From Candidatus Sericytochromatia bacterium (lineage in GTDB: Bacteria; Cyanobacteriota; Sericytochromatia; UBA7694; JACMQJ01), in assembly GCA_046328015.1 (NCBI GenBank), contig JAXLXH010000001.1, positions 2,546,350-2,610,349 of the forward strand: a stretch of 64,000 bases of DNA. The letters are read 5' to 3'. The translations under genes were made by a program, and so were the position numbers. Positions within the stretch are counted from its first letter, which is position 1, and every line of letters starts with the position of its first letter. Shown piece by piece: positions 1 through 40,368 of the stretch. The notes under the pieces were generated by a model that was not told the origin of the DNA, searched no databases, and worked only from the letters and a program-made list of their open reading frames with translations.

Positions 1-2
1 TG

Positions 3-3000: not shown

Positions 3001-4475
3001 ATAGTGTTGATGGTGTTTATTTAGGTGATACCATAAAAGTTAAAGAATTAGAAGATGGCAGATTAAGCTTAAAACCTACTACCAAAAATGGTAGTTTAAA
3101 GATAGGTAGTAGTAAAGATGATATAATATCAATGTTAGATGATTTAAATAAACTTAATTCTGTTAATGCCTCCTCTAATCTTCCTAATGATATAAAAAAT
3201 ATTAAACAACAATTAGCTACATTCTCAACGCTTAATATGAGAGCTGATTTAGATAATTTTAGTATTATTTATGATCCTAAAAATAAAAATATGGTTTTAG
3301 ATTCAGATCTAAATGGTCAAATTGGTACTAAGGTTATAGTTGATCCGAATAATAAAACAGATATCAATTTTAGAAATGTAGATATTACAGGAAAATTAAA
3401 AGCAGATACCGAATCTAATAATTTAACTATTACTAATGGTGTAATGTCAGGTACTACAGATAATATAGAAGATATGATTTTAGGTGCTTTAGCAAAATCT
3501 GGAGCTATACCAAAAGATTATGTAACAGATAAAGAAAAACATAAAATATCTTTTAATATGGGTGGAAAAACTGTTAATATAGATACTAATAAAACAGGTA
3601 TTGGAGAAGATAGTCAAATAGGATTAAAAACTGGAACTAAATTAGCGGGTATCAATTTTAATTATAAAATGAAATCTAAAGTAACAGTTGAAAATATAGC
3701 TCCTAAAGATGCTAAAGAACCTAAAAATGTTATAAAAATACATTTAGATAAAAGTAGCTTAGCAGGTTTGATGACTGTTGATCTAGATGGAAAAGGTAAA
3801 ACTTTAGGTGGTTTGATAAAAGTTAATCTAAATAAACAAATAGAAGGAAATAGAACTCCTTATTTAGATTTTATAGAAACATTAGATAATTTTGATAAAA
3901 ATACCGAAAAAGATTATAAAGAAGCTAAAACTACTTTTGAAAATAAGTTTTTAGCCGAACTTCCTAAAGATACTAGAGAAAAAGAAAAAAATAGAAAATT
4001 AGAAAAAGCTCTAAAAGAAAATAATTTAGATTCTTTTGATAATTATCAAAAACATACAGGTGCGGTGCAATTATTAGATGGAAGAACTATTATTTTTGAT
4101 TTGGAACAATATTTAAAAACTCAAACGGGTGGAAATGCAGATTTTAAAATAGAACCATCTAAAAATGTATTATCAGGTGATAAAGATGCAGATCATTTTA
4201 AATTAGGTTTTTCTGTTACGGTAAAAAATATGGGTCCAGGTAAAGTTGATATTCCTAAAGATGTAAAAGAAGCTAAAAGTGTTACTGATATTATAGAGCA
4301 AGTTCCTGAAATACTTAATCAAACACTAAATGTTACAGAACAAGTAGATAAAGTTGCTAAGGATATAAATACTAATGTTAATAATACTGTAAATACAGTT
4401 AATGCTCAAAAAAATAATGCTTTGGGTCAAATGAGAAATATTAATACTCAGCTAAAAAATAATATAAAAAGATAA
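3..4475 (+). CDS. very large repetitive Lys/Asn/Asp-rich secreted or surface protein (5' end runs off the window; >1490 aa)
   Basis: Open frame without stops from nt 3 to the TAA at 4475; upstream of the M at 192 the same repeat style continues. Beta-rich low-complexity repeats, no Cys, no RTX GGXGXD repeats and no catalytic motif recognised. Confidence 0.6.
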   Translation: MDVNGIQKDGLQDWQGTLNGSISIDVKSKLEETLNKLDLPKGTRVNVVYDEKAKEFDVKLNYEMISERFGELTALRIKPEADGSLSIRSMGNLVNANLNLTDGLAVKGKVNVPFVASVAADGSVSMKDMDKIDAKAGAEVEIKTPLTLPNIKVGANVNPNMQRNTTTNKFDFNPNLTKGNANIFPDLKVDGKLIPQFVEDKTGSWETDAHKAIAGSIISVAESMEKGGFIVPQSIKNVKNNLKNWGTESYKSQEVKDKQVINDFVNGKIKLEYDISKQMNLKGFPNANINQFDPNIKFTGDGQKLNVVFDNSKLVASSDGKSTTVATQEGRPDGLSIDVSANLNNTTASVDAKARLQVNIDDKERKDFSKKLTDMGMNPNKAEISGDLTIDTKLHSELNSTDLSKVNLDATVNVKANDVSVFDPTTNTKISLRKAKADGDLKVVQEGKNTVLKADTKVSLSGFNVYKGNERLVAVGSAAFSGKLSYEHVQSEDKKSQKTKVLVQGHLDVSSGKYDDFSVKNLKADGLVAYTEKTGVTFGATTEAAIKLSGNITNEKEGINLNIKNVSGYGKIDVDQSGNIKSADIKAGASGKNEFRVAGKIKGEDFILESDLKAHGKVKIDKNGEKTTFSLKGDIDRLKTGNIDLEDFKNINAKVTFDPVTNSVTLKAETGKNLDLKGKIQGQEFIFKGDAEVTLQVDKATGKFTLTPNAKVEHLKVGDFDLKDAELNGAKISVDPSNGKNKVSIDSLENQNLNFKGDFISGKNNTTHVDIKGKGSINFEATPNKTTGKMDYSVSTKNEFENFEIGDFKLKNAVFDGKVGFDGQNISLNGNTNEYLKFKGTQINKHTNKETNLDFEAKGNLTIKTDKNDGLNISMQNVELKKGLIDDYLIEDTKINGKLNYQKAKDVKTLNFSGLDEKNPNLELSGKLTKTYKDLEGKEQKYVSEISNLALQGSVSLEDNKLKFHDLKTEVKGKVNGVSVNNIIAANTEKDGSLDIKLGNSVDGVYLGDTIKVKELEDGRLSLKPTTKNGSLKIGSSKDDIISMLDDLNKLNSVNASSNLPNDIKNIKQQLATFSTLNMRADLDNFSIIYDPKNKNMVLDSDLNGQIGTKVIVDPNNKTDINFRNVDITGKLKADTESNNLTITNGVMSGTTDNIEDMILGALAKSGAIPKDYVTDKEKHKISFNMGGKTVNIDTNKTGIGEDSQIGLKTGTKLAGINFNYKMKSKVTVENIAPKDAKEPKNVIKIHLDKSSLAGLMTVDLDGKGKTLGGLIKVNLNKQIEGNRTPYLDFIETLDNFDKNTEKDYKEAKTTFENKFLAELPKDTREKEKNRKLEKALKENNLDSFDNYQKHTGAVQLLDGRTIIFDLEQYLKTQTGGNADFKIEPSKNVLSGDKDADHFKLGFSVTVKNMGPGKVDIPKDVKEAKSVTDIIEQVPEILNQTLNVTEQVDKVAKDINTNVNNTVNTVNAQKNNALGQMRNINTQLKNNIKR

Positions 4476-4590
4476 TTTTTTAAAATTATGTATTAACAGA
4501 GTGTGGCATTATATTGTGGGTATGAGTGTACTTAATTTATAATCTATAAATGAAAATAAAATGATAAAAATTTAATAATAAAATTAAAAA

Positions 4591-6186
4591 GTGAAAAATG
4601 ATTTAAAACCGTTACCACTAGGTAATGCAACATTCAAAAAAGTAATAGAAGAAGGTTGTATTTATGTAGATAAAACAGAAGAAATACATAAATTAATTGG
4701 AGATAATAAACAAAGTAGATATTATTTTTTATCTCGCCCAAGAAGATTTGGTAAATCATTACTTATAAGCACATTAGAAGAAATTTTTAAGGGAAACAAA
4801 GAGCTTTTTAAAGGGTTATATATTTATGATAAAATAGATTTTAAAAAATACCCAGTAATAAAATTAACAATGAATGACTTAAATTATGCTCAAGGAATAA
4901 AAGACTTTGAAAATTCACTTTTATTTCAAATAAAAAATATTTATGAAACATATAATATAGAACTAAAAGAAAATGATTATATTTTATCATTTAAAAGGCT
5001 TATACAAGAATTATCAAAAAAATCAGAACAAGAAAAAGTTGTTTTACTAATAGATGAATATGACAAACCAATTATTGAATATTTGGGTGATAATATTGAA
5101 CGTGCAACAGAAATGAGAAAAATTTTGAAAAATTTTTATGAAACAATAAAAGCGAATGATCAATATCTTCATTTTGTTTTTTTAACAGGAGTTTCTAAAT
5201 TTTCTAAAACTTCAATTTTTTCTAGTTTGAATAATATAACTGATATAACATTAGATAATGAATTTTCAAAAATAGTAGGGATAAATGAAGAACAATTATA
5301 TGATTATTTTGATGAATATATAAAAATTTTGGCAACAGAAAATCAGTATAGTATAGAAAATATAAAAAAAGAATTAAAATTTTGGTACAATGGGTATTCT
5401 TGGGACGGTAAAAACTTTTTATATAACCCTTATTCTCTATTAAGTGTTTTTAGTAAAAAAAATGTCGATAATTATTGGTTTGAAACAGGAACTCCAACTT
5501 TTTTAATAAAAACTATAAAAGAATACAATATTGATGTTCGTAAATTAGAAAAATTAGTTTTATCTTTAAATAGTTTTTCTTCTTTTGATATTGATAATAT
5601 GAATGTATATGCGTTACTTTTTCAAACTGGTTATTTAACTGTAAAAGAAATAATAAAAAATGGCTTAGAAAGAGAATATGTTTTATCTTATCCAAATAAA
5701 GAAGTAAGAATTTCAATGTTAGAACATTTATTAAATGACTATGTAGGAAAAATAGTAGATGATGATATATCAGTTAATGAAATGGTTCGTAAATTAAAAA
5801 ATAATGATATGGATGGTCTAAAAAATATTTTTATTTCTATTTTTGGAACAATAGCAGTAAAAATGCAACCTAATTCTAATACAACTATTCAAGATAAAGA
5901 ATTATATTATCATACTATTTTTTATTTAATTTTTGTGCTTATAGGTTCTAAAATAAAAGCTGAAGTTTCTACAAATAAAGGTTTTATAGATGCAGTAGTA
6001 GAAACAGATAAATATATTTATATTTTTGAATTTAAAATGGGTAGTACAAAATCAGCAATTAGGCAAATTAAAGATAAAGCTTATTATGAGCCATATTTAG
6101 CTAAAAATAAACAAATCTTTTTGGTAGGTGTAAGCTTTGATTCTAAAACAAAAAATATAAAAAAATGGGTTTTGGAAAAATTATGA
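4591..6186 (+). CDS. predicted AAA-ATPase-like protein with C-terminal PD-(D/E)XK nuclease-like domain (PF09820/DUF1703-type architecture)
   Basis: N-terminal 'YFLSRPRRFGKSLL' motif typical of the predicted AAA-ATPase-like family. C-terminal 'DAVVETDKYIYIFEFKMG' has a D...E-x-K arrangement typical of PD-(D/E)XK. Confidence 0.6.
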   Translation: MKNDLKPLPLGNATFKKVIEEGCIYVDKTEEIHKLIGDNKQSRYYFLSRPRRFGKSLLISTLEEIFKGNKELFKGLYIYDKIDFKKYPVIKLTMNDLNYAQGIKDFENSLLFQIKNIYETYNIELKENDYILSFKRLIQELSKKSEQEKVVLLIDEYDKPIIEYLGDNIERATEMRKILKNFYETIKANDQYLHFVFLTGVSKFSKTSIFSSLNNITDITLDNEFSKIVGINEEQLYDYFDEYIKILATENQYSIENIKKELKFWYNGYSWDGKNFLYNPYSLLSVFSKKNVDNYWFETGTPTFLIKTIKEYNIDVRKLEKLVLSLNSFSSFDIDNMNVYALLFQTGYLTVKEIIKNGLEREYVLSYPNKEVRISMLEHLLNDYVGKIVDDDISVNEMVRKLKNNDMDGLKNIFISIFGTIAVKMQPNSNTTIQDKELYYHTIFYLIFVLIGSKIKAEVSTNKGFIDAVVETDKYIYIFEFKMGSTKSAIRQIKDKAYYEPYLAKNKQIFLVGVSFDSKTKNIKKWVLEKL

Positions 6187-9869: not shown

Positions 9870-9948
9870 TTTCAGGGGTACGGGAGCAGAGCCACCCATC
9901 CCTTCCTCCTGCGGGGTTGATAACCCGTAGGAAGTCTTAAATTCATTT
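9870..9948. repeat. family-A GC-rich palindromic element (REP/RPE-like), copy 1
   Basis: 'tttcaggggtacggg...cccttcctcctgcggggttgataacccgtaggaagtcttaaattcatt' shares core and terminus with the copies at 12679 and 63459. Confidence 0.75.
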
Positions 9949-11855: not shown

Positions 11856-12806
11856 TTATTCGGTTACAAATATTACTTTCTTCTCTAAAAACTGAGAATT
11901 AAGCTCTTTTTCATATTCTTGAGCATCAAGTTTTTCTAAATCTTTTGCCTTAATATCAAAATAATTTTTAGCAAATTTTTTATTAAAATCTATTTTAATC
12001 ATTTCTTTTATTCTTACAAGAGATTCTTTAAAAACATTATCATCATATTCATAACGAATATTTTCTATTTTTAGTGGAAAATTTAATTTTTTAGAAAACC
12101 AAATATTTATTTTATCAATATATTTACTTTCGCTAAAATATTCTGTTTTGGGGTATATTTTTATGCGTTCTATGTTAAAAACTTCGCAATCATAACCTTT
12201 AAATTTTTCAGTATAAATTTTTTTATGTTTTATATTTTTTAAAAAATTATAAAGCTTTTTGTTATTTTCAAACATTTCATAATCATAAATATTTTCTATA
12301 GCAAAATCAAAAACTTTGGTATCCTTAGTTAAATTTTTATATTCCATACCAAAATCATTATATTTATCTAAAAAACCGTTAAAAGAATAAAAAATATTTT
12401 TATCTTTATCAATAATAATATAATTTCTAGTATTATCATTACCTAAAGTTGTTATTTTTATTTTATTTTTTATAGTGCTATAAACTTCTTTTTGTCCATA
12501 AAAACCATGGTCTTTTAATATTTCAAGTAAATTAGTTTCAGTAATATTTTCTTTTAATTGGGGATAAACCTTAGTATCATAAGTTATTTCAATATTTTCT
12601 GGTAAAGCATAAGCTTTTTGAAAATTTAAAATAATTAAACTAGTAAAACCAAATAAAAAATATTTTATGATTACTAGAGAAGACCTCAGAGCTCCGCTCT
12701 GGGGTTTCAGGGGGTACGGGGGCATAGCCCCCGATCCCTTCCTCCTACGGGGGATCACCCCCGTAGGAGGTCTTAAATTCATTATTAAAGAATTATTTAA
12801 AACCAC
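11856..12806 (-). CDS. hypothetical secreted protein; N-terminal about 40 codons are read through a family-A repeat
   Basis: Hydrophobic signal-like segment 'IIKYFLFGFTSLIILNFQKAYA'. The only in-frame ATG upstream (MPPYPLKPQ...) lies inside the repeat at 12679-12784. No family assignment. Confidence 0.45.
   Translation of the reverse strand: MVLNNSLIMNLRPPTGVIPRRRKGSGAMPPYPLKPQSGALRSSLVIIKYFLFGFTSLIILNFQKAYALPENIEITYDTKVYPQLKENITETNLLEILKDHGFYGQKEVYSTIKNKIKITTLGNDNTRNYIIIDKDKNIFYSFNGFLDKYNDFGMEYKNLTKDTKVFDFAIENIYDYEMFENNKKLYNFLKNIKHKKIYTEKFKGYDCEVFNIERIKIYPKTEYFSESKYIDKINIWFSKKLNFPLKIENIRYEYDDNVFKESLVRIKEMIKIDFNKKFAKNYFDIKAKDLEKLDAQEYEKELNSQFLEKKVIFVTE
12679..12784. repeat. family-A GC-rich palindromic element, copy 2
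   Basis: 'gagctccgctctggggtttcagggggtacgggggcatagcccccgatcccttcctcctacgggggatcacccccgtaggaggtcttaaattcatt' contains the perfect palindrome cctacgggggatcacccccgtagg and gacctc/gaggtc ends. Confidence 0.8.
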
Positions 12807-13951: not shown

Positions 13952-14080
13952 AAAAAACCCTCAAAGATATAAAATAAAATTCCTTATTAATAATAGTAAA
14001 AATTAAAAAAATATTTCTTCATTTAAAGGTTTTTTAACAATTAAATTTTATATAATTCCTGATGGTTTCAAAAAAACATC

Positions 14081-14174
14081 ATTTTTTACGAAAAATATTG
14101 GTGTAAAACCCAGTATTTTCGTAGAGGAAAAGCACTGTTTTGTCCTCTCCGAGACCCCCAAGGTCTTAATTTTA
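14081..14174. repeat. family-B MITE copy
   Basis: 'ttttacgaaaaatattggtgtaaaacccagtattttcgtagaggaaaagcactgttttg...ggtcttaatttt' matches 22190-22283 almost base for base in the core. Confidence 0.75.
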
Positions 14175-22173: not shown

Positions 22174-22283
22174 GGGGTTGTCCAAAAAGACAATTTTTAC
22201 GAAAAACATTGGGAGAAAACCCAGTATTTTAGTAGGGGAAAAGCACTGCTTTGCCCGTTTTTGGACACCCCCGTAGGTGTGAG
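22174..22283. repeat. family-B MITE copy with inverted termini (ggttgtccaaaaag...gtttttggacaccc)
   Basis: Core identical to 14081-14150. The termini are inverted repeats. Confidence 0.75.
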
Positions 22284-22298
22284 TAAAGATAAAAAATA

Positions 22299-23372
22299 TT
22301 AACTATTCATTATTTTATTTTGAATTTCAATTGACTCTGTATGAATACTTTGAAAAATCTCCATAATAAATCTATCTGATAAATGTTTACCTTTTGCTAA
22401 TTCTTGCATTTTATGTAAAATTTCATCCCATCTAGAAGGTTGTAAAATAGTAATATTATTTTCTTTTTTATATTTACCAATTTCACTTACTACTTGCATT
22501 CTAGAACTAAGCATATCAATTAATTGAGTATCTATTTTATTAATTTGACTTCTTAATTCATCCAATTTATTATTAAAATTACTATTATCAGAACTTACTT
22601 TTCTTAAAACTAATTTACTTAATATTTCAGCTAATTCGTCTGGTTTAACTTGTTGTTTTGCATCACTTAAGGCAACTGAAGGATCTCTATGAGATTCTAT
22701 CATTAAACCATCATAATTTAAATCTATAGCTTCTTGAGAAACTTCTTGTAAAAATTTTCTATCCCCTGTAATATGGCTAGGATCGCATATTAAAGGCATT
22801 TCCGGAAATCTTCTTTTTAATTCTATAGGCAATTCCCAATGAGGTTGATTTCTGTATTTTCCTTTTTCATAGCTAGAAAAACCTCTATGTATAGCAGCAA
22901 GTTTTTTTATACCAGAATTATTTAATCTTTCAAAAGCTCCTAACCATAATTCTAAATCAGGGTTAACAGGGTTTTTTACCATTACTGGAATATCAACTCC
23001 TTTTAAGGCATCTGCTATTTCTTGAACTGCAAAAGGGTTAACAGTTGTTCTTGCTCCAATCCATAAAATATCAATTCCAGCTTCCAAAGATTCTTCTACG
23101 TGTTTTGCAGTAGCAACTTCTATAGTTACAGGTAAACCTGTTTCTTTTCCTGCATCTTTTATCCATTTTAGAGCTTCAGTTCCAACTCCTTCAAAGGTAT
23201 TTGGTCTTGTTCTTGGTTTCCAAACTCCTGCACGTAAAATATTTACATTATGTTTTGCCAAATTTACACAAGTTTCCATAACTTGTTCTGGAGATTCGGC
23301 ACTACAAGGACCTGATATGATTATAGGTCTTTTTAAATCACTTTTAAAAGGTTGTTCTAATTCCAATTTCAT
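22299..23372 (-). CDS. bifunctional 3-deoxy-7-phosphoheptulonate synthase / chorismate mutase
   Basis: 'PIIISGPCSAESPEQV' DAHP-synthase (KDO8PS-like class) N-terminus and a C-terminal chorismate-mutase-like helical domain. SD 'aagagga' 9 nt before the ATG at 23372. The longer track start at 23432 lies in a family-B repeat fragment. Confidence 0.8.
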   Translation of the reverse strand: MKLELEQPFKSDLKRPIIISGPCSAESPEQVMETCVNLAKHNVNILRAGVWKPRTRPNTFEGVGTEALKWIKDAGKETGLPVTIEVATAKHVEESLEAGIDILWIGARTTVNPFAVQEIADALKGVDIPVMVKNPVNPDLELWLGAFERLNNSGIKKLAAIHRGFSSYEKGKYRNQPHWELPIELKRRFPEMPLICDPSHITGDRKFLQEVSQEAIDLNYDGLMIESHRDPSVALSDAKQQVKPDELAEILSKLVLRKVSSDNSNFNNKLDELRSQINKIDTQLIDMLSSRMQVVSEIGKYKKENNITILQPSRWDEILHKMQELAKGKHLSDRFIMEIFQSIHTESIEIQNKIMNS

Positions 23373-23426
23373 TTTTTTATTCCTCTTTTTAATATAATAA
23401 ACTTTTTTTATAATTTTTCTTAAAAA

Positions 23427-23460
23427 GGACAAAGCTGTGCTTTTACCCTACGAAAATACT
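23427..23460. repeat. partial family-B repeat (reverse orientation)
   Basis: 'ggacaaagctgtgcttttaccctacgaaaatact' is the reverse complement of the B core 'agtattttcgtag.ggaaaagcac.g.tttgtcc'. Confidence 0.6.
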
Positions 23461-24855
23461 TTATTTTTTCAAAATACCATCTAAAACCCTTCTAATTTCA
23501 TTAGTATCTTTCATATAATCAAAAATTTTATTATATTCTTTATTATCAAGATACTGTTTAAAAACTAAAAGATTTTTTATATATTCATCTAAAGCTGTAG
23601 AAACATTTTCCATATTTTGTTCAAAAATAGGTGTCCACATAGCAGGAGAACTTTTTGCTAATCTAACTGTAGATTCAAAACCGCTACCAGCTAAATTAAA
23701 AATAGTAGTTTCATCTTTTTCTTTTTCTAAAACTGTTGCACCCAAAGCAAAAGAGCTTATATGAGATAAATGAGAAACATATGCTATATGTAAATCATGA
23801 GCTTTAGAATCCATATATAAAATTTTCATACCTAAAACTTGATATATTTTTTCAACTTCTTTCACTGCAAAATCATAGCTTTTTTCTTGATCACAGATAA
23901 TACCTGTTTTTTTTGAAAATAAACCAGAAAAAGCGGCTTTAGGTCCAGAATGTTCTGTACCAGCAATAGGATGTCCTGCTACAAAGTTTTTTCTATTTTT
24001 ATGATTTTCAACAGCAAGACAAATATTTTCTTTTGTCGAGCCTACATCAGTAACTATAGTAGTTTCATTTATTTTATCTAAAACATTTTGTAAAACTTTT
24101 TCTGTTGCATTAACAGGTATAGAAACTAGTACTAAATCAGAGCTTTTTACAGCCTCATCTAGTTCTTTTATTTCATCTACAATATTTAATTCCAAAGCTA
24201 ATTTACAATTTTCTTTATTATTATCTACACCTATTATTTTATCTATATAATTAACTTTTTTTAGATCTAAAGCTATAGAACCACCTATTAAACCAAGACC
24301 AATAACTGTAATAGTTTTTAATTTTTCTTTTCTAGGCATGTTTTCTAAAATACTATTGATAAAAGGAGCTTTTGCATTTGTATATTCTTCTCTTATTAAG
24401 CCTTTACTTTCTAAATCTAATTTTAATTTTTCATATTCTTCAGCTTTATTTGGATTATTATTCATATAATCTCTAAAAAAAATAGTTTTATTATAATCTT
24501 CAGAGTTTAATTCAAACATATGTATATGAAATTTAACTATTTCACCTATAGTTCTAAAATAGTGTCTTTTTTCTATACCAAATTCTCCCATGAATTCATA
24601 ACCAATTTTTTTTAATCCTTCTATACAGTTAAAACCATCATCAAATTTAGTTATTCCTATACATATATCTATAATTGGCTTTGCGGAAATATTTTTTATA
24701 GAGGTACTTCCAACATGATCTATGGTTTTTATATAAGGAGCGATTTCTCTTAGAATTTTATTTTTTTCATTTTCAAATTCTTTTATCCATAGTTCATTAT
24801 GAGGAAATAATTTTATTTCACCTTTTTTTAAACCTATTATATTTTCTTTATTCAT
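23461..24855 (-). CDS. tyrA: GrpB-domain / prephenate dehydrogenase (TyrA) fusion
   Basis: N-terminal GrpB/UPF0157-like domain 'FPHNELW...IDHVGSTSI'. Central Rossmann 'ITVIGLGLIGGSIALDL' and the TyrA catalytic region. Confidence 0.75.
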   Translation of the reverse strand: MNKENIIGLKKGEIKLFPHNELWIKEFENEKNKILREIAPYIKTIDHVGSTSIKNISAKPIIDICIGITKFDDGFNCIEGLKKIGYEFMGEFGIEKRHYFRTIGEIVKFHIHMFELNSEDYNKTIFFRDYMNNNPNKAEEYEKLKLDLESKGLIREEYTNAKAPFINSILENMPRKEKLKTITVIGLGLIGGSIALDLKKVNYIDKIIGVDNNKENCKLALELNIVDEIKELDEAVKSSDLVLVSIPVNATEKVLQNVLDKINETTIVTDVGSTKENICLAVENHKNRKNFVAGHPIAGTEHSGPKAAFSGLFSKKTGIICDQEKSYDFAVKEVEKIYQVLGMKILYMDSKAHDLHIAYVSHLSHISSFALGATVLEKEKDETTIFNLAGSGFESTVRLAKSSPAMWTPIFEQNMENVSTALDEYIKNLLVFKQYLDNKEYNKIFDYMKDTNEIRRVLDGILKK

Positions 24856-24867
24856 ATTTTTATTTTT

Positions 24868-24958
24868 CCTTGTCAGAATCAGGATTCACAAGATTTTAGG
24901 ATTAACAGGATTATTTTTTATTAGAACAACCCAATCCTAAAAATCTTGATTCAGAAAT
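24868..24958. repeat. family-C MITE with terminal inverted repeats (tctgaatcaggatt...aatcctaaaaatcttgattcaga)
   Basis: Termini are inverted and match the 25343-25446 copy. Lies between the tyrA start and the GxxExxY stop. Confidence 0.75.
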
Positions 24959-25329
24959 TATTTTTTACCTTTAAAAATTTTTTTATATTGTAAACTACTA
25001 GAACCAAAATTTATTAATAATCCTATTGGAAAATCATAAGCCACAACATAATTTTTTGCTTGTGCTAAGTGTATATCTTCCAAATTTATTAAAGCTTTTA
25101 ATTCAACTACAACACAATTTTCTACGATAAAATCTGCTCTTCTTGTTCCTACATTTATACCATCATAAAAAATAGGTTGCTCTTTTTCTTTTTCAAAAGA
25201 TAATCCAGCACGTTCAAACTCAATACTTAAACATCTTTGATAAATAACTTCTTGAAAGCCGTTACCCAAAGTATTATGTATTTTCATTGCTCCACCAATA
25301 ATTTTATATGTTATTTCTTCTAATTCCAT
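24958..25329 (-). CDS. GxxExxY-family protein (PD-(D/E)XK-like), bracketed by two family-C MITEs inside the aromatic operon
   Basis: 'KIIGGAMKIHNTLGNGFQEVIYQ' carries the GxxExxY motif. 123 aa. Confidence 0.7.
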   Translation of the reverse strand: MELEEITYKIIGGAMKIHNTLGNGFQEVIYQRCLSIEFERAGLSFEKEKEQPIFYDGINVGTRRADFIVENCVVVELKALINLEDIHLAQAKNYVVAYDFPIGLLINFGSSSLQYKKIFKGKK

Positions 25330-25342
25330 TTTATTTTCCTTT

Positions 25343-25446
25343 GTCTGAATCAGGATTCACTGGATTTTAGGATTAGCAGGATTATTTTGCATTAGATTAA
25401 CCCAATCCTGTAAATCTTTTAATCCTGAAAATCCTGATTCAGACAA
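25343..25446. repeat. family-C MITE copy
   Basis: 'tgtctgaatcaggattcactggattttaggatt...aatcctgaaaatcctgattcagaca' has perfect terminal inverted repeats. Overlaps the aminotransferase stop. Confidence 0.75.
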
Positions 25447-26596
25447 TTATCCTTTCAGAAGCATCTTTTAATCTATCAACACTAGCACATAAAGAAATTC
25501 TTATATATCTTTTTCCATTATTTCCAAAAATAAAACCAGGGGTAATAAAAACATGCTTTTTAGCTAAAATATCTTCTATTAATTCTTCTCCACTGTTTAA
25601 AGCATCTGGAATTTTAGCCCAAAAAAACATACCTTCTTGATTTTCACTATATTTGCAATTTAAAGCATTTAGTATCTCTTTTGCATAAAATTTTCTTTTA
25701 TTATATTCTTCATTTCTTTTGTCATGCCATTCTTCAGAGTTTTTTAAGGCTTCTATTGCTGCATGCTGAACAGGTAAAAACATTCCAGAATCTATATTAC
25801 TTTTGAATTTTAAAATAGTATCAATATATTCTTTTTTTCCAGAAATCCATCCAATTCTCCAACCAGCCATATTATGAGATTTACTAAGAGAATTTAATTC
25901 TAAGCAAACTTCTTTTGCATTAGGTAAAGATAAAATACTAGTAGGTTTGTCAGTATTTAAAACTAAACTATAAGGATTATCATGACATAATAAAAACTTT
26001 TTTTCTAAGGCTAAATTAATTAATTCTTCAAAAACTTTTTTATCAGCTTTTGCTCCTGTAGGCATATTAGGATAGTTCAACCACATAATTTTTACTTTGG
26101 ATAAATCCATAGCTTTTAATTCTTCAATATTTGGTTGCCAATTATTATTTTCGGTTAAATTGTATTTTTTTATAATTCCACCAGCTAAATTAGTTACAGA
26201 AGAATATGTTGGATAAGAAGGATCTGCAATTAATACTTCATCGCCATTATTTAAAAAAGCCATAGAAATATGCAAAATACCTTCTTTAGAACCAATTAAG
26301 GGTAAAAGTTCTGTTTCAGGATTAAGTTCAACTTGATAAGTTTTTTTAGTCCATTCTGCAATAGCTTTTCTAAAATCAGGAATACCTTTATAAGCTTGAT
26401 AACTATGATTTTTAGGATTTTTTGCTGAATTTATTAAGGCATTAACTGTTTCTTCAGATGGAGGCATATCAGGGCTTCCAATACCTAAATTTATAACATC
26501 TAGGCCTTCATCTTGCATTTTTTTTATTTGTGCAAGTTTAGAAACAAAATAATATTCGCTTACATTATCTAATCTTTTGGCTTGTTCAATTATCAT
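25439..26596 (-). CDS. class I/II PLP-dependent aminotransferase (aromatic/aspartate type)
   Basis: 'SLSKSHNMAGWRIGW' PLP-lysine motif. Position between pheA and tyrA. Confidence 0.75.
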   Translation of the reverse strand: MIIEQAKRLDNVSEYYFVSKLAQIKKMQDEGLDVINLGIGSPDMPPSEETVNALINSAKNPKNHSYQAYKGIPDFRKAIAEWTKKTYQVELNPETELLPLIGSKEGILHISMAFLNNGDEVLIADPSYPTYSSVTNLAGGIIKKYNLTENNNWQPNIEELKAMDLSKVKIMWLNYPNMPTGAKADKKVFEELINLALEKKFLLCHDNPYSLVLNTDKPTSILSLPNAKEVCLELNSLSKSHNMAGWRIGWISGKKEYIDTILKFKSNIDSGMFLPVQHAAIEALKNSEEWHDKRNEEYNKRKFYAKEILNALNCKYSENQEGMFFWAKIPDALNSGEELIEDILAKKHVFITPGFIFGNNGKRYIRISLCASVDRLKDASERIIV

Positions 26597-27447
26597 AAAT
26601 ATTTTTCTCCTACTAAATATTCACCCAAAACAGTTAGTTCATTTACAGTTTTATTTACTATTTCTAAGGCTTTTTTATAAATAAAATAATCATTAAATTC
26701 TAAATCTAAATGAAAAAAGTATTCCCATTCTCTTCCTAAGACAGGTAAAGATTGAATCTTAGTTAAATTAATATCCAAACTAGCAAATGATATTAAAATA
26801 TTTGCCAAACTACCACTTTTATGGCTTAAGTTAAAACATATAGAGGCTTTATTTGCTTTATCATTTAAAATTTTAGAGCAGTTATTTTCGTTTATATCTT
26901 CATTTTCTTTTATTATTAAAAATCTAGTATAGTTTCTTTTATTTGTTTCAATGCTTTCAGCTAAAACTTCTAAATCAAAAGCTTCTGCTGCTTCCAAACT
27001 TGCAATAGCTCCAATTCCTTTTAAGTTTTTTTCTCTTATTTCTTTTGCACTTAAAGCTGTATCTGTACTTTCAGCTAATTTTATATTTGGGTAATAAGTT
27101 TCAAAAAAATCTTGGCATTGCAATAAAGCCATTTGATGAGATCTAACTTCTGTTAATTCTTCTATTTTTTGATTTGGTAAAGCCATAAGATTTTGTTGAA
27201 TCCTTAAATAGACTTCTCCTATAATATTTACATTGTAATCTCTTAATAAAGCATAATTAGGTAAAATCGAACCAGCTACAGTATTTTCTATGGCTACAAC
27301 TCCAAAATTAACTTCTTGTCTTTCCAAAGAATTAAAAACTTCTTTGAAAGTTTCGCACATAACTACTGCTATTTCTTTTCCAAAAAACTTATTTGCAGCT
27401 ATTTCATGGAAAGAAGCTCTAAATCCTTGTATTGCTATTTTTTTATT
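26593..27447 (-). CDS. pheA: prephenate dehydratase
   Basis: PDT catalytic domain plus C-terminal ACT. Start 'MNKKIAIQGF' at 27447. The extra 10 codons in the track (MSYESGVKI) and the GGAG of the SD lie inside the family-D repeat. Confidence 0.8.
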   Translation of the reverse strand, partial: NKKIAIQGFRASFHEIAANKFFGKEIAVVMCETFKEVFNSLERQEVNFGVVAIENTVAGSILPNYALLRDYNVNIIGEVYLRIQQNLMALPNQKIEELTEVRSHQMALLQCQDFFETYYPNIKLAESTDTALSAKEIREKNLKGIGAIASLEAAEAFDLEVLAESIETNKRNYTRFLIIKENEDINENNCSKILNDKANKASICFNLSHKSGSLANILISFASLDINLTKIQSLPVLGREWEYFFHLDLEFNDYFIYKKALEIVNKTVNELTVLGEYLVGEKYL

Positions 27448-27466
27448 CATTATCTTAACTCCAGAT

Positions 27467-27563
27467 TCATAACTCATCCCCCTCCCCCCTTCTCTTTGTT
27501 AAAAGAGAAGAGGGAACTAACAATAACTCCCTCTCTTTAGATGAAGAGAGGGTTGGGGTGAGT
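27467..27563. repeat. family-D MITE copy 1 (cataactcatccccctcccccttctctttgttaaaagagaag...agagggttggggtgagtt)
   Basis: Termini are inverted (actcatcccc / ggggtgagt). About 92% identical to 30821-30917, in the same orientation. Confidence 0.8.
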
Positions 27564-27582
27564 TCTGATATATTCAAACAAA

Positions 27583-27612
27583 AAAGCCTCGGTTTAAATC
27601 GAGGCTTTTTGC
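27583..27612. terminator. bidirectional rho-independent terminator
   Basis: 'aaaaagcctcggtttaaatcgaggcttttt' is a 6-bp GC stem with A-run and T-run flanks. Immediately downstream of the minus-strand SEC-C gene. Confidence 0.6.
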
Positions 27613-35737: not shown

Positions 35738-36809
<1,072 letters not shown>

Positions 36810-37280
36810 ATTAACCTCAAATTTTTTATGTTTCAAATTTATCTAAAAAATCATTTAACCATAAATCAGCTTCTTCTAATGAATTAAAGTATTCAGATTC
36901 CAAGATTCTTTATCAGATATAGAAGAAAAAATTTAACATAAAAAACTTTTTTTCCGCTATTTCCAAAACTAAAAGCTTTATCACCAACTTTAGCTTCTAA
37001 TATTTCTGTTTTATAAATGTAATCTAAATTATATCTAGTAGTTTCATCTATTCTTAAAAATTTTGCCATAATAAAAACCATAAAAAACATTTTATATCTA
37101 CATTCTAGAATTTTATCATAGTATAGTTTTTAATTATTTTTTTTGGAAAAAATGTTTATAATTTTTTAGTACGATATATCATATTTTAAGTAATAATATG
37201 TTTCTTAAAGAAACCTTAACCTAAAAGGATTATTATAATTTTTACTGGTATAATATATATTTGAAGGGAGGTGATTTAAA

Positions 37281-37355
37281 ATGGGATGGACAACCATAAT
37301 ACAAATGTTTACTGGAATGTCTAGTTTAGTCTCAGTAGAAAAAGAGGAAAATTAA
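37281..37355 (+). CDS. 24-aa small peptide ORF (MGWTTIIQMFTGMSSLVSVEKEEN) behind a perfect Shine-Dalgarno; Fst-like type I toxin candidate
   Basis: 'GGGAGGTGA' 9 nt upstream of the ATG. Hydrophobic core with an acidic tail. A GC hairpin lies 140 nt downstream (37496-37520). Confidence 0.3.
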   Translation: MGWTTIIQMFTGMSSLVSVEKEEN

Positions 37356-37495
37356 TAAACTAGAAAAATTTCATTACAACGGCGTAATGATTCAAAAAAA
37401 ATTCAAAAAATTGCAAAAACTTTTAAGACTAAAAATATAATCAAAAAAATATCAAAATGTTGTATAATTAAATAAGAATTACTTTTTTAGAGAAG

Positions 37496-37520
37496 AAACT
37501 TGTTTCCGCGCTGGAAACTT
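37496..37520. repeat. GC-rich hairpin 'aaacttgtttccgcgctggaaactt' (family E)
   Basis: Isolated GC palindrome in the AT desert. Paralogous to 40488..40510. Confidence 0.6.
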
Positions 37521-39666
37521 AAAACTATATTTATTTGCTAAAAATTAAAAAAATCTACTTAATATTTCTATTATTAATCCAAAAAAAATGATAATATTTA
37601 TAGGAAATAAAGGAAATGAAAAAAATATAATAATAAAAATATCAAACTTATTATAAAAAATTTTATTGAAAATATATTGAATTGTAAAAAAAGAGAGAAC
37701 ATATATAAAGTAAAAAATAATGAAAAAAATATAGTTTCATCTAACATATTAAAAAAACTATATTTTTTAATAAAAAAAGTATTAATATCTATTATTTCTT
37801 CTTTTTCTTATAGAAAAAAATAATTTATTATGTACAATAATAAAAATATAAAAAAATAATAGAATAAATTTATTACTGTTAAACTAAAAGAAAATTTAAA
37901 CAGTTTATCTAAATTTTCTTTTGCTTCAAAAACATTTATTAATAATTCTCTTTTTACTTTATTTATTAAAATAATTATATAAGTTGATATAAAAGGAGAT
38001 AATATTAATCCATAAAAAAGTGTTTCTAAGCTTCTATCTCTAATATTTTTAACCTGATTTCTATTATTTTTTAATTATAACAAAATTTTTTTATAAAATC
38101 TGAAAAGATTTTTCAATGAAAAAACTTTAGTGATCATTATAACTAAAATTAAAAAATAGGTTTTTATTAGTGAATATATTAGTTTAAATAAAAATGTATT
38201 GATAAAGATATTTTTATTCTGAAACTTAATTTAAATTAATTAGTATGCTAATTAAATATGTATAGTTTAAAATTTATAATCCTTATAATAAAAGTTACTT
38301 TTGTTTTTTAAGGAAAATTTATTTTAAAATAATAAGGAAAGTTTTTTTATTTAATATATAGAGTCTTAGAATATAAATAAACTAGAAATATAAGATATAA
38401 AAGTTTGTCTAAAATTTTTTTTACAAAAAAAATTTTAGACAAATAAAGTATTTTTATAAAGTGAGAACGCCTTTCTTTGTAGTTTTTTTGAGAGACAATA
38501 ATGTAAATAAAAAAATGTTGATAATTATAAAACTAATTAGAATAACTATGATTATAGTTTTATTTAATTTTTCAGGATTAAATTATAAAATGTTTTTTAT
38601 AGAGGAAAAATATATAAAGTAAAATTTTCACGAAGAAAAACTTTTGTTTATTTTATAATAAAAATACTAGGTATAAGTTTTTTTGGAATAAAATGAATTT
38701 TTTTATATACAAAAAAATAAATTATCAATAATAGCTATAAGTTTATATAATCAATGTATTAAACTTTCCATTATTGATAATTCATATTATCAATAATAGA
38801 AATATCGTTCAAATATATAATTATAACAGCCTTTTATTTTAGTTTTCTCAAGAAAAATTTTTTATTTTTAAAACAAAATCTATTTGATAAAATAAAATTA
38901 AACAAAAGAAAAATAGTGATTTAAATAACAATATAATTTATTTTTGATTTTTAAAATACTTTTTTCTTATTTAATAAGAATATATTCAGAAATTAAATTA
39001 CTTTCTTATAATTAATTTAAATTAATTAGTAAACTAACTATATTAGGTTTTCATGATTAACTTTTACCTAAAAAAGAGTTATAATAAAATTATTCTAATT
39101 TAAATAATAAAATTGAGTGGAAATTTACCTAAAAAAATAATTTAAATAATATAGAATTAAATGGAAATATTTTCATATTTAATTCTATTGATATAGATTT
39201 ACTAATATATTTTTTGCCTATTAGTAAAAATATTGATTTTTTTCTTCAAGGAAAAAACTAATTCCTAATCAATATGATTTTAAAAGCTTTAAAATATAAA
39301 GGTAAAAATAAATACAAATTTACTCTAAAAATATAAAAATAATACTTATGTTTTTGATATTCATGATGAAAAGAAAAATTTTATTTATAATATAAATGTA
39401 TTTATTAATGATAAATTAGAACTTTCTGAAAAATAAATTATAAAAATAATAATAATCTATCTATAAATTTTGCAGTAAGTTTTTTCAAAAAACAATATTA
39501 ATTTTTTTAGGTATATTAATTTACCTTTTTATTCAAAAATAATAAATGATTTTATAATAATAATATATATACTTATTTTTTATATGATACTCTCACCTTT
39601 TTATATTTTATATAAAGAGCATATTTTAGTAAAAAAAGAATTAGATTTTATTTTAATAAAAATATT

Positions 39667-40368
39667 ATGAATATAAAAAAAATTAAATGTGAAATTAAAA
39701 ATATAACAAAAAATTTTTCAAAAGGAAAAATATTAGATTTATGTACAGGAAATGGAGATTTTATAGATTTTATAAAAGATGAATTAAAAAACTTTTCTGA
39801 AATTATTGGAGTAGATATTCATAATAGAAATATTGAAAAAGAAAATTTTATTTATAGAAAAATGGATATTTATAATTTAAATTTTCCTCAAAATTACTTT
39901 GATATAATAACCATATCAAATTCTTTGCATCATATAGAAAATTTAGAAATAATATTTTCTTCAGTAAAAAAATATTTAAAAGAAGATGGTTTTTTTATAA
40001 TAAATGAGATGTTTTCTGACAACCAAAGTTCTCCACAGCAAACTCATGTTCTATTACATCATTTTTCAGCAGAAATAAATAAATTAGAAAATATTTATCA
40101 TAGAGAAACCTATAAAAAAGATGAAATTAAAAATATTATAAAAACAAATAATTTTATTATTGAAAACAAATTTGAATTTTATTTTAAAGAAAGTATCGCA
40201 GGAAATCAAATTTCAGAACTTATAGATAATTTATTAAAAAAAGTTCCGCAAGAAAAAAAAGAAGAGTTTACAACTAAATCAAAATATATAATAGAAAATT
40301 ATTTATTTTATGGTTTTCAAAATGCAACTCAATTATTATTAATAACAAAACCTAATAAAAGTATTTAA
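39667..40368 (+). CDS. class I SAM-dependent methyltransferase
   Basis: Motif I 'ILDLCTGNGDF', post-I 'IIGVDI', 'ISNSLHH'. Substrate unknown. Confidence 0.65.
   Translation: MNIKKIKCEIKNITKNFSKGKILDLCTGNGDFIDFIKDELKNFSEIIGVDIHNRNIEKENFIYRKMDIYNLNFPQNYFDIITISNSLHHIENLEIIFSSVKKYLKEDGFFIINEMFSDNQSSPQQTHVLLHHFSAEINKLENIYHRETYKKDEIKNIIKTNNFIIENKFEFYFKESIAGNQISELIDNLLKKVPQEKKEEFTTKSKYIIENYLFYGFQNATQLLLITKPNKSI

What the first reader, a model, noticed from the sequence alone, without database searches (positions are those of the whole stretch)
24868..25446. GxxExxY gene bracketed by two direct family-C MITEs and inserted inside the aromatic amino-acid operon
The operon pheA - aminotransferase - [GxxExxY] - tyrA - DAHP synthase/CM runs co-directionally on the minus strand. 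The 123-aa GxxExxY protein (PD-(D/E)XK-like) is flanked tightly by two about 95-bp elements with perfect terminal inverted repeats (tctgaatcaggatt...). The two elements abut the neighbouring gene boundaries. This looks like a MITE-delivered cassette within a biosynthetic operon.
Basis: partly seen in the sequence, partly recalled or inferred. Interest (0 to 1): 0.65.

Follow-up and report, generated by a model that had tools for sequence, protein, structure and literature searches.

The report
Hairpin-bounded GxxExxY nuclease cassette in operon
A small nuclease gene with palindromic ends has been inserted between two genes of an amino-acid biosynthesis operon, and the same gene with the same 17-base ends turns up wedged between operon genes in bacteria of many phyla, which points to a widespread, apparently undescribed kind of tiny selfish DNA cassette.

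Summary
On the minus strand the order is pheA, aminotransferase (AT), a 106-bp palindrome, a 123-aa GxxExxY gene (TIGR04256/PF13366), an 88-bp palindrome, GrpB-tyrA, then DAHP synthase/chorismate mutase.

Relatives lack the insert. In the closest one (L094) the AT stop overlaps the GrpB start. In L091-93 AT overlaps tyrA.

The "two captured MITEs" reading is only partly right. The palindromes are the cassette's own ends.
- Of 80 homologous genes from many phyla (70-83% aa identity), 69 have TTGTCTGAATCAGGATT or its complement within 400 nt.
- 28 of the 80 have the simple left end–gene–right end form, and 4 have the window's double-hairpin form.
- Gene-less hairpins with the same ends are dispersed: 77 in metagenomes, only 4 of them next to a gene.
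- There is no target-site duplication.
- Insertions sit at cistron junctions, mostly co-directional with their neighbours. The left end often supplies the upstream stop codon, as it does here.
- Protein subtypes co-vary with the repeat-unit sequence.
- A Mucilaginibacter filled/empty pair gives a nucleotide-level footprint.

Best explanation: a selfish cassette encoding a PD-(D/E)XK nuclease that acts on its own ends and is transcribed by read-through. Membership and insertion are well supported. The mobility mechanism is inferred. I found no published description.

The parts
24870..25446 (-). Whole inserted unit: hairpin B, leader, GxxExxY ORF, hairpin A.
   Evidence: Absent at the orthologous junction in L094 and L091-93. 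It is bounded by the family's outer terminal repeats.
25341..25446 (-). Hairpin element B (106 bp). Its arms are built of AGGATT-type 8-9-nt units.
   Evidence: I1: 43-nt arms, 81% complementary. (-45.8 kcal/mol, z = -8.4)..
25430..25446 (-). Outer left terminal repeat, TTGTCTGAATCAGGATT on the minus strand. Its TGA (25439-25441) is the aminotransferase stop codon.
   Evidence: The same use of the repeat's TGA as the upstream stop occurs in 10 of 55 other loci.
25341..25357 (-). Inner right terminal repeat of hairpin B, AATCCTGATTCAGACAA on the minus strand. It is followed by the leader AGGAAAATAAA and the GxxExxY ATG.
24958..25329 (-). GxxExxY ORF, 123 aa. It has the PD-(D/E)XK nuclease fold, with invariant E27, D66, E76 and K78.
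24870..24957 (-). Hairpin element A (88 bp). It is one 17-nt unit shorter than B and its ends are degenerate, with 3 and 1 mismatches.
   Evidence: (-22 kcal/mol, z = -3.2).
24856..24869 (-). Leader GGAAAAATAAAAAT between the outer right end and the GrpB-tyrA start codon. It is a near-copy of the leader in front of the GxxExxY ATG (25330-25340).
   Evidence: D1 extends past the terminal repeat..
25439..26596 (-). Aminotransferase gene. Relative to its homologues it has lost about 6-9 C-terminal codons. Its last codons, ATT GTC TGA, come from the element.
   Evidence: window ...ERIIV*; L094 ...DRIKNFKKGIYE*; the L091 3' end reads ...ERIKDFIKK*.
23461..24855 (-). GrpB-TyrA fusion gene immediately downstream of the insert.

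Best explanation
The window holds one copy of a widespread family of very small cassettes (about 0.46-0.6 kb).

Anatomy. Each cassette is bounded by a 17-bp terminal inverted repeat. The outer part, TTGTCTGAA, is universal. The inner part is the first of several 8-9-nt subterminal units (AGGATT-type) that make the two arms a palindrome. Between the arms lies one ORF, a 123-135-aa GxxExxY protein with a complete PD-(D/E)XK nuclease active site.

History here. The cassette entered the aminotransferase/GrpB-tyrA junction of the aromatic operon. It replaced the last few aminotransferase codons and supplied a new stop codon from its own end. In this copy both arms have been completed to full hairpins.

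Expression (inferred). It has no recognisable promoter or terminator of its own and is oriented with the operon. It is therefore probably transcribed by read-through and translated from its own A-rich/AGGA leader.

Mechanism (inferred).
- The nuclease binds the repeat units of its own arms and cuts at the conserved outer repeat.
- Host repair or recombination then copies or moves the unit, which would leave no target duplication.
- Survivors are those that land exactly between cistrons and keep both neighbours expressed.
- Gene-less hairpins with the same ends are deletion derivatives that depend on a nuclease supplied in trans.

Shown: family membership, the conserved ends, insertion relative to relatives, junction precision, absence of a target duplication, and protein/repeat co-variation.

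Inferred: nuclease activity, recognition of the ends by the protein, the way of moving, and read-through expression.
For: Family and fold:
- TIGR04256/PF13366 scores are far above their cut-offs.
- E27, D66, E76 and K78 are invariant in 20 homologues.

Insertion:
- Empty sites are seen in L094 and L091-93.
- A nucleotide-level pair exists in Mucilaginibacter. The empty leuC...GAATTAGTGTAATGGCAACT contrasts with the filled ...GAATTAGTCTGAATCAGAATT[...]GATTCAGATGGCAACC.

Conserved ends:
- 69 of 80 loci from GTDB genomes have the 17-mer (2 or fewer mismatches) within 400 nt of the gene. 28 have the simple left|right form.
- The chance rate is about 7e-8 per position.

Selection on the protein and on the ends:
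- ORF GC tracks host GC (r = 0.61), and the window copy has GC3 of 8.9%.
- Yet protein identity stays at 70-83% and the ends stay constant.

Gene-less derivatives:
- 77 hairpins with exact ends were found in metagenomes, only 4 next to a gene. At least 17 contigs came from one sample.
- Some also occur in viral contigs.

Placement:
- Neighbours are co-directional for 59 of 71 upstream and 61 of 74 downstream genes.
- 27 of 33 gene-less hairpins lie between co-directional genes.
- The upstream ORF ends at or in the left end in 36 of 55 loci. The downstream start lies within 2 nt of the right end in 12 of 57.

Protein/repeat co-variation:
- AGGATT arms go with K at position 117 (47 of 48). AGAATT arms go with L (17 of 17).
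- The unit type of the two arms correlates (r = 0.72).
- A 57%-identity subfamily has its own inner repeat, with the matching complement at the other end.

Other:
- Sense and antisense RNA folding energies are equal, which argues for a DNA-level palindrome.
- The only ORF found between left and right ends in the held loci is GxxExxY.
Against: - No activity of any family member is documented in the papers I could search.
- A 123-aa PD-(D/E)XK protein acting alone as a mobility enzyme has no precedent.
- There is no target duplication and no excision footprint to tie movement to a known chemistry.
- The exact Crocosphaera protein sits at one and the same locus in all strains read.
- The ORFs are compositionally ameliorated and strongly conserved. 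That fits a long-resident, possibly host-useful gene as well as it fits an active parasite.
- Protein/repeat co-variation could be plain linkage within element lineages.
- About a quarter of the loci lie in type I restriction-modification operons. This could mean a functional tie to restriction systems rather than selfish spread.
- Only one copy is visible in the source genome.
- The test for other cargo between the ends was run on a biased sample.
Confidence: 0.55

Rival explanations
1. Two copies of an independent, genome-specific MITE family happen to flank the gene, or mobilised it as a composite unit, and delivered it into the operon.
For: - Two full palindromes in direct orientation flank the ORF.
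- Gene-less hairpins of this kind exist and are dispersed in other genomes.
- Clusters and arrays of hairpins occur.
Against: - The same ends accompany the gene across phyla, and the simple left end-gene-right end form is the commonest.
- The repeat-unit subtype follows the protein subtype.
- There is no target duplication around either hairpin or around the whole unit.
- No further copy lies in the 64-kb window.
Confidence: 0.08
2. A host-useful or domesticated small nuclease or nucleic-acid-binding protein. Its flanking hairpins would work at the RNA level, as processing or stabilising sites that set its own expression and that of the operon. Alternatively it is an accessory of restriction-modification or defence operons. 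On this view spread is mostly by riding on transferred operons, not by its own movement.
For: - Purifying selection is extreme and composition is fully ameliorated.
- The locus is stable in Crocosphaera strains.
- About a quarter of the loci are inside type I restriction-modification operons.
- The cassette is co-directional with its neighbours and lies between cistrons.
Against: - Insertion into unrelated junctions of housekeeping operons (aro, leu, ilv), with empty sites in relatives, needs a DNA-level insertion process.
- Gene-less hairpins are dispersed without the gene.
- Folding energy shows no strand bias between sense and antisense.
- PADLOC has no model for the protein.
- Two different subfamilies occupy the same leuC|leuD junction in sister species.
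Confidence: 0.22
3. The hairpins are recombination sites for an enzyme encoded elsewhere: integron-attC-like, Xer-like, or a REP-associated (RAYT-like) HUH enzyme. GxxExxY would then be only the commonest cargo.
For: - Imperfect palindromes flanking promoterless, co-oriented ORFs resemble integron cassettes.
- Tandem gene-plus-end arrays occur, e.g. L065 with a period of 489 bp.
- Absence of a target duplication is typical of site-specific or single-strand mechanisms.
Against: - The only ORF between the ends in the held loci is GxxExxY (biased sample).
- Protein subtype co-varies with repeat subtype.
- The ends do not contain the integron core GTTRRRY.
- No integrase, RAYT or transposase family appears among the most frequent neighbour families in 145 flanking ORFs.
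Confidence: 0.12
4. An assembly artefact, or a chance local duplication with no wider meaning.
For: The source is a metagenome-assembled genome. Direct repeats of about 100 bp can be produced by misassembly.
Against: - A separately assembled contig from run SRR1027651 carries the same protein between the same two hairpins.
- The same architecture recurs in unrelated genomes.
- The two copies are only 87% identical.
Confidence: 0.02

Closest known systems
MITEs and their parent insertion sequences
   Same: - Small size and terminal inverted repeats.
- A protein-coding form together with many short non-coding derivatives that share the same ends.
- Dispersed copies in some genomes.
   Different: - No target-site duplication.
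- The only encoded protein is a 123-aa PD-(D/E)XK nuclease, not a DDE, HUH, serine or tyrosine transposase.
- Insertions are concentrated exactly at cistron junctions inside operons.
REP/REPIN elements with their RAYT gene (REPtrons)
   Same: - A single small gene flanked by palindromic repeats of the same family that is scattered gene-less through the genome.
- Long residence and strong conservation of the gene.
   Different: - RAYTs are HUH/Y1 enzymes related to IS200/IS605 TnpA. Here the protein has a PD-(D/E)XK fold.
- By my own knowledge, REPs cluster at operon ends and between convergent genes. These hairpins lie between co-directional genes (27 of 33).
- Here the element crosses phyla with nearly unchanged ends.
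Free-standing and intron-borne homing endonuclease genes, including the PD-(D/E)XK enzyme I-Ssp6803I
   Same: - A small site-specific-nuclease-type ORF.
- Presence/absence polymorphism at precise sites.
- No target duplication.
- Dependence on host repair would explain the footprint.
- Two different variants occupy the same junction in sister species.
   Different: - There is no conserved host target sequence. The insertion sites are unrelated genes.
- The element carries its own inverted repeats and leaves gene-less derivatives, which homing genes do not.
- No sequence-level relation to I-Ssp6803I was tested.
IS200/IS605 family
   Same: - Very small, with a protein of about 150 aa.
- Hairpins near both ends.
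- No target duplication.
- Palindrome-rich non-autonomous derivatives.
   Different: - The enzyme class differs (HUH against PD-(D/E)XK).
- IS200/IS605 ends are not inverted repeats of each other.
- Those elements insert next to a specific 4-5-nt target.
Correia elements of Neisseria and other intergenic palindromes (ERIC, BIME)
   Same: 100-150-bp inverted-repeat elements sitting between genes and co-transcribed with them. They can affect mRNA stability.
   Different: - Correia elements duplicate TA, are genus-restricted, and have no known coding form.
- The present family has a coding form and spans phyla.
TnsA of Tn7
   Same: It is a PD-(D/E)XK nuclease that cuts transposon ends.
   Different: TnsA works only together with the DDE transposase TnsB and other Tn7 proteins. 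Here no partner is encoded.

Membership tests
GxxExxY protein family (TIGR04256 / Pfam PF13366 PDDEXK_3) | The profile match is above the curated cut-off over the full length. | tested here: met
   TIGR04256 134.3 bits (cut-off 35), residues 5-118. PF13366 127.3 bits (cut-off 22).
GxxExxY protein family (TIGR04256 / Pfam PF13366 PDDEXK_3) | The GxxExxY motif is present. | tested here: met
   G24-F-Q-E27-V-I-Y30 is invariant in 20 homologues.
PD-(D/E)XK nuclease superfamily | The catalytic constellation is present: E on the first helix, D, then (D/E)xK on the central strands. | tested here: met
   E27, D66 and E76-L-K78 are invariant.
PD-(D/E)XK nuclease superfamily | The restriction-endonuclease-like alpha/beta fold is present. 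| tested here: met
PD-(D/E)XK nuclease superfamily | Nuclease activity is demonstrated. | not testable with these tools
   No solved structure by sequence. Function is listed as unknown in PMC3424549.
Terminal-repeat-bounded GxxExxY cassette (family defined here) | The 17-bp terminal inverted repeat TTGTCTGAATCAGGATT / AATCCTGATTCAGACAA brackets the gene. | tested here: met
   Window: exact at 25430-25446 and 25341-25357, with 1 and 3 mismatches at 24870-24886 and 24941-24957. Present in 69 of 80 other loci.
Terminal-repeat-bounded GxxExxY cassette (family defined here) | The subterminal arms are made of inverted 8-9-nt AGGATT-type units. | tested here: met
Terminal-repeat-bounded GxxExxY cassette (family defined here) | The cassette lies between co-directional cistrons and is absent in relatives. 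| tested here: met
MITE | Short, non-coding, with terminal inverted repeats. | tested here: met
   The hairpins are 88 and 106 bp with terminal repeats.
MITE | A target-site duplication flanks each copy. | tested here: not met
   In 138 left...right pairs, the length distribution of anchored direct repeats equals the permutation expectation. The Mucilaginibacter filled/empty pair shows none.
MITE | Many dispersed copies in the same genome. | tested here: inconclusive
   There are only the two adjacent copies in 64 kb. A metagenome scan for the window-specific loop found 0 hits. In other samples many contigs carry copies.
MITE | Shares its ends with an autonomous element that encodes a transposase. 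| tested here: inconclusive
   The ends are shared with the gene-carrying form. Whether GxxExxY acts as a transposase is unknown.
REPtron (REP + RAYT) | The flanked gene encodes an HUH/Y1 RAYT transposase. | tested here: not met
   The only Pfam/NCBIfam hits are PF13366 and TIGR04256.
Integron gene cassette | An attC site with R''/R' cores (RYYYAAC / GTTRRRY), and an IntI integrase with attI nearby. | tested here: not met
   By inspection, the ends TTGTCTGAATCAGGATT / AATCCTGATTCAGACAA contain no GTTRRRY core. No recombinase family is among the frequent neighbours. The window was not scanned exhaustively for integrases.
Homing endonuclease gene | A nuclease ORF inserted at a defined, conserved host target that it cleaves in empty alleles. 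| tested here: inconclusive
   Presence/absence at exact junctions is shown. Insertion sites in different operons share no sequence. Cleavage is not testable here.

The most novel reading that the evidence does not exclude
These cassettes would be a new class of autonomous mobile element, the smallest known in bacteria at about 0.46-0.6 kb. Their single 123-aa PD-(D/E)XK nuclease would recognise subfamily-specific repeat units in the element's own palindromic arms and cut at a universal outer motif (TTGTCTGAA). It would drive duplication-free insertion precisely at stop/start junctions of operons, leaving gene-less hairpins as non-autonomous progeny.
Probability: 0.3. Interest if true: 0.85.

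Novelty: new variant of a known kind. Interest (0 to 1): 0.7.

Why it matters
GxxExxY/PF13366 is a very large family. It has 14,648 clusters at 50% identity with E <= 1e-3, and more than 8,000 clusters at 90% identity close to this protein. Its function is listed as unknown.

This analysis ties the family to a fixed pair of 17-bp ends, to palindromic arms that co-vary with the protein, and to duplication-free insertion exactly between cistrons. That gives a concrete, testable function: a nuclease acting on its own ends.

It would also explain many small 'hypothetical' ORFs and repeats that interrupt restriction-modification and biosynthetic operons in Bacteroidota, Cyanobacteria and other phyla.

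Practical consequences:
- Genome annotation. Upstream genes gain or lose C-terminal residues, and repeat-encoded tails get called as protein.
- Operon expression. Hairpins of -45 kcal/mol sit inside polycistronic mRNAs.
- Possibly a source of compact sequence-specific nucleases.

Tried and rejected
- **Rfam.** A scan of the whole window at gathering thresholds gave no RNA family.
- **Solved structures.** A PDB sequence search gave no relative. PADLOC gave none, and PHROGs gave only a weak hit of unknown function.
- **Source genome.** Looking up the window protein returned only a 1.6-kb Logan contig, so the 3.55-Mb source contig could not be censused. A metagenome scan for the window-specific loop sequence found nothing.
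- **Target-site duplication.** Neither anchored nor shifted direct repeats exceeded permutation.
- **Covariation in the arms.**
  - RNAalifold on 40 hairpins gave almost none, because the ends had been selected as exact and the arms align poorly.
  - Own-arm against cross-element complementarity was only slightly higher (6.58 against 6.37 of 9; 34 of 2000 permutations reached it).
  - The clearer signal came from unit subtypes and from same-site elements.
- **RNA-level structure.** Folding energies of sense and antisense strands were equal.
- **Recent transposition.** The identical Crocosphaera protein proved to be one orthologous locus in all strains.
- **Other cargo between the ends.** None was found, but the sample was chosen through the gene or through short hairpins.
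- **Literature.** Searches for GxxExxY, PF13366/PDDEXK_3, TIGR04256/TIGR02436, the end sequences themselves, and MITE+Bacteroidetes+nuclease gave only incidental mentions.
- **Promoters and terminators.** The scan showed nothing above shuffles inside the insert.
Full report
**1. What is in the window**

The window is about 25% GC. The GxxExxY protein and the TyrA protein are each 100% identical to proteins of an NCBI metagenome-assembled genome labelled 'Candidatus Sericytochromatia bacterium', whose contig is 3.55 Mb.

The genes run as follows on the minus strand:
- prephenate dehydratase, 26593-27477
- an aminotransferase (AT), 25439-26596
- a 123-aa ORF, 24958-25329
- a 464-aa GrpB-prephenate dehydrogenase fusion, 23461-24855
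- DAHP synthase/chorismate mutase, 22299-23432

The 123-aa ORF is a clear GxxExxY protein. It scores 134 bits on TIGR04256 (cut-off 35) and 127 bits on PF13366 (cut-off 22).

Two palindromic elements flank it.
- elemB (25341-25446, 106 bp) has perfect 17-nt ends, TTGTCTGAATCAGGATT / AATCCTGATTCAGACAA. It folds at -45.8 kcal/mol (z = -8.4).
- elemA (24870-24957, 88 bp) has ends with 1 and 3 mismatches. It folds at -22 kcal/mol (z = -3.2).
- The two align in direct orientation at 87% and differ by one 17-nt unit.
- The repeat extends about 12 nt beyond the end into the leader before each start codon (GGAAAAATAAAA against AGGAAAATAAAA).

The AT stop codon is the TGA inside elemB's outer end. elemA begins 2 nt after the GxxExxY stop and ends 14 nt before the GrpB-tyrA ATG.

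The window holds no other copy of the element and no other GxxExxY gene. A separately assembled Logan contig carries the same protein between the same two hairpins.

**2. It is an insertion**

All TyrA homologues except the window's own are about 284 aa and lack the GrpB part.
- L094 is the closest relative found (TyrA 80%, GrpB 60%, AT C-terminus 65% identical). It has AT, GrpB and TyrA in the same order. The AT stop overlaps the GrpB start by 8 nt, and it has neither the gene nor hairpins.
- L091-93 (TyrA 68%) have pheA-AT-tyrA-DAHP synthase, with AT and tyrA overlapping.
- The window's AT ends ...ERIIV*. L094 ends ...DRIKNFKKGIYE*, and the L091 3' end reads ...ERIKDFIKK*. The insert therefore removed the last 6-9 codons and supplied ATT GTC TGA.

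**3. The flanks are the gene's own ends, in many phyla**

Homologues are 75-86% identical across Bacteroidota, Cyanobacteria, a Deltaproteobacteria MAG and Kapaibacterium.

The first contexts I fetched came from unrelated metagenomes and lay inside type I restriction-modification operons. They showed the same ends at the DNA level.

I then took 80 loci from GTDB species genomes. They include Akkermansia, Leptospirales, Ignavibacteriota, Microcystis, Dolichospermum, Janthinobacterium, Methylococcaceae and Desulfocicer.
- 69 of 80 have the 17-mer with 2 or fewer mismatches within 400 nt of the gene.
- 28 have the plain left end-gene-right end form.
- 4 have the window's form, with a full hairpin on each side.

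In the compact form the ORF's own TAA overlaps the right end (TAaatcctgattcagacaa), and the whole unit is about 460-500 bp. The C-terminal tails of the longer proteins (NPxNPK...) are read from the arm repeats.

**4. Gene-less derivatives**

A metagenome scan for left end, 45-75 nt, right end (both ends exact) found 77 hairpins on 74 stretches.
- Only 4 have a GxxExxY gene within 300 nt.
- At least 17 contigs come from one sample.
- One 2.1-kb contig has three.

Such hairpins also occur away from the gene in the GTDB loci and in a few viral contigs. Their arms are 2-3 inverted NNNAGGATT units, and their loops are unrelated to one another.

**5. How and where they sit**
- No target duplication. 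In 138 end pairs the anchored direct-repeat lengths match permutation.
- Orientation. 59 of 71 upstream and 61 of 74 downstream neighbours are co-directional with the gene. 27 of 33 evaluable gene-less hairpins lie between co-directional genes.
- Junction precision.
  - In 10 of 55 loci the upstream ORF stops at the TGA of the left end, as in the window.
  - In 16 it runs into the element, and in 10 it stops within 12 nt before it.
  - In 12 of 57 loci the downstream start codon lies within 2 nt of the right end (GACAATG).
- Neighbours. The commonest are type I restriction-modification genes: Methylase_S in 16 of 71 upstream ORFs, and HsdR-type domains in 11-13 of 74 downstream ORFs. Neighbours also include leuC/leuB, ilvC, acyl-CoA dehydrogenase and ClpB.

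**6. A nucleotide-level footprint**

In Mucilaginibacter lutimaris (L205) leuC and leuD overlap: ...GAGGAATTAGTGTAATGGCAACT.

Three relatives carry an insert at that point:
- M. flavus (L072): ...GAAGAATTAGTCTGAATCAGAATT[...]AATTCTGATTCAGATGGCAACC
- M. kameinonensis (L203): ...GAGGAATTGGTCTGAACTCGAATT[...]AATTCGAGTTCAGACAATATTATGGCAACT
- strain KACC 22773 (L204): ...GAAGAAGTTGTCTGAACCGGAATT[...]AATTCCGGTTCAGAAAAAAG...

What this shows:
- The LeuC C-terminus (EELV in L072 and L203, as in the empty allele; EEVV in L204) is kept, with the stop now supplied by the element.
- Nothing is duplicated.
- The L072 protein and the L203/L204 proteins are only about 60% identical, although leuD is 86-88% identical at the DNA level. 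Two subfamilies therefore occupy one junction in sister species.
- L204 has the double-hairpin architecture of the window.

**7. Protein and repeats change together**

The outer TTGTCTGAA is common to all subfamilies. The inner part of the end and the arm units differ.
- AGGATT units go with K at window position 117 (47 of 48).
- AGAATT units go with L (17 of 17) and an MEKDELTY N-terminus. This pairing holds in hosts from Sphingobacteriales to Janthinobacterium and Desulfocicer.
- The unit type of the two arms correlates (r = 0.72).
- More distant paralogues have TGATT, CGAATT or CGGAATT units, each with the matching complement at the other end.

This fits recognition of the units by the protein. 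Linkage within element lineages is the null explanation.

**8. The protein**
- E27, D66 and E76-x-K78 are invariant.
- The window ORF has GC3 of 8.9%, like its neighbours. Across loci the ORF GC follows host GC (r = 0.61). These copies are therefore old residents under strong purifying selection, while the ends stay constant in hosts from 25% to about 50% GC.
- Sense and antisense strands of the hairpins fold equally well. This gives no sign of selection on the RNA.
- The wider family is large: 14,648 clusters at 50% identity.

**9. Interpretation**

Well supported: the window holds a member of a cross-phylum family of hairpin-bounded GxxExxY cassettes, and it was inserted at an operon junction.

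Mechanism I commit to, with moderate confidence: the encoded PD-(D/E)XK nuclease acts on its own ends. Host repair completes duplication-free insertion or copying. The promoterless gene lives on operon read-through. Gene-less hairpins are dependent derivatives.

Points against an actively jumping parasite:
- the stable single locus in Crocosphaera strains
- the amelioration of the ORFs and the extreme conservation of the protein
- the link with restriction-modification operons

These keep a host-function or RNA-level rival alive. A trans-acting recombinase cannot be excluded, because my test for other cargo was biased.

**10. Comparison with what is known, and novelty**

The cassette works most like an IS/MITE pair or a REP/RAYT pair, and in its footprint like a homing endonuclease gene or IS200/IS605. 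It fails defining features of each:
- no target duplication
- a PD-(D/E)XK enzyme only
- no conserved host target
- true inverted-repeat ends

PMC3424549 lists PF13366 as 'unknown', with multiple transfers. Searches for the family names, for the end sequence and for related terms found no description of the ends, the hairpins or the insertion pattern. Subscription literature and database comments were not searchable, so prior knowledge cannot be ruled out.

Noticed in passing
window 23461-24855 (-): The prephenate dehydrogenase carries an N-terminal GrpB domain (PF04229, aa 14-171) as one 464-aa ORF. In the closest relative (L094) GrpB and TyrA are separate genes 1 nt apart. The other 119 TyrA homologues listed match only the C-terminal ~60% of the query (279-315 aa).
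   Followed up: partly
window 27508-27610 (-), upstream of pheA: A bidirectional terminator-like hairpin (27581-27610) is followed by two overlapping G+C-rich hairpins (27552-27529 and 27535-27508) that end just before the pheA start codon. This looks like an attenuator-type leader for the operon.
   Followed up: no
window 14073-14145 and 22184-22256: A second intergenic repeat family, 73 nt at 84% identity. The copy at 22184-22256 lies right after the DAHP synthase/CM stop. It lies between the inverted sequences TGTCCAAAAA and TTTTTGGACAA.
   Followed up: partly
window 9875-9916 and 12711-12752: A G+C-rich 42-nt repeat (GGGGTACGGG...CCTGCGGGG, 88% identical) in a 25% GC genome.
   Followed up: no
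window 36001-40000: The local G+C content drops to 17.6%, with few long ORFs.
   Followed up: no
L065 (Bacteroidales bacterium OY781105.1), 1-4414: Four GxxExxY gene copies lie in the same orientation. The last three are spaced 489 bp apart, and each of the four is followed by a right end at +41.
   Followed up: partly
L087 (Dolichospermum planctonicum) 4377-5400; L039 3590-4901 and 7184-7752; L018 3637-4636: Arrays of many left or right ends at 80-110-bp spacing lie next to the gene. These are complex clusters of partial hairpins.
   Followed up: no
L072, L203, L204 against L205 (Mucilaginibacter leuC|leuD junction): Two GxxExxY subfamilies, about 60% identical and with different inner ends, occupy exactly the same stop/start junction in sister species. 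M. lutimaris has the empty overlapping junction.
   Followed up: yes
L012, L033, L047, L070: In L012, L033 and L070 the cassette sits in the same context, directly upstream of an ORF beginning ...YNPDVL..., in genomes labelled as different families. L047 was grouped with them by eye only. The cassette appears to travel with that operon. Eco57I-type methylase domains occur among the downstream neighbours, but this ORF was not scanned on its own.
   Followed up: no
one search hit list (e.g. P0369, P0382, P0387): Some family members are proteins of about 250-270 aa with two GxxExxY domains in tandem.
   Followed up: no
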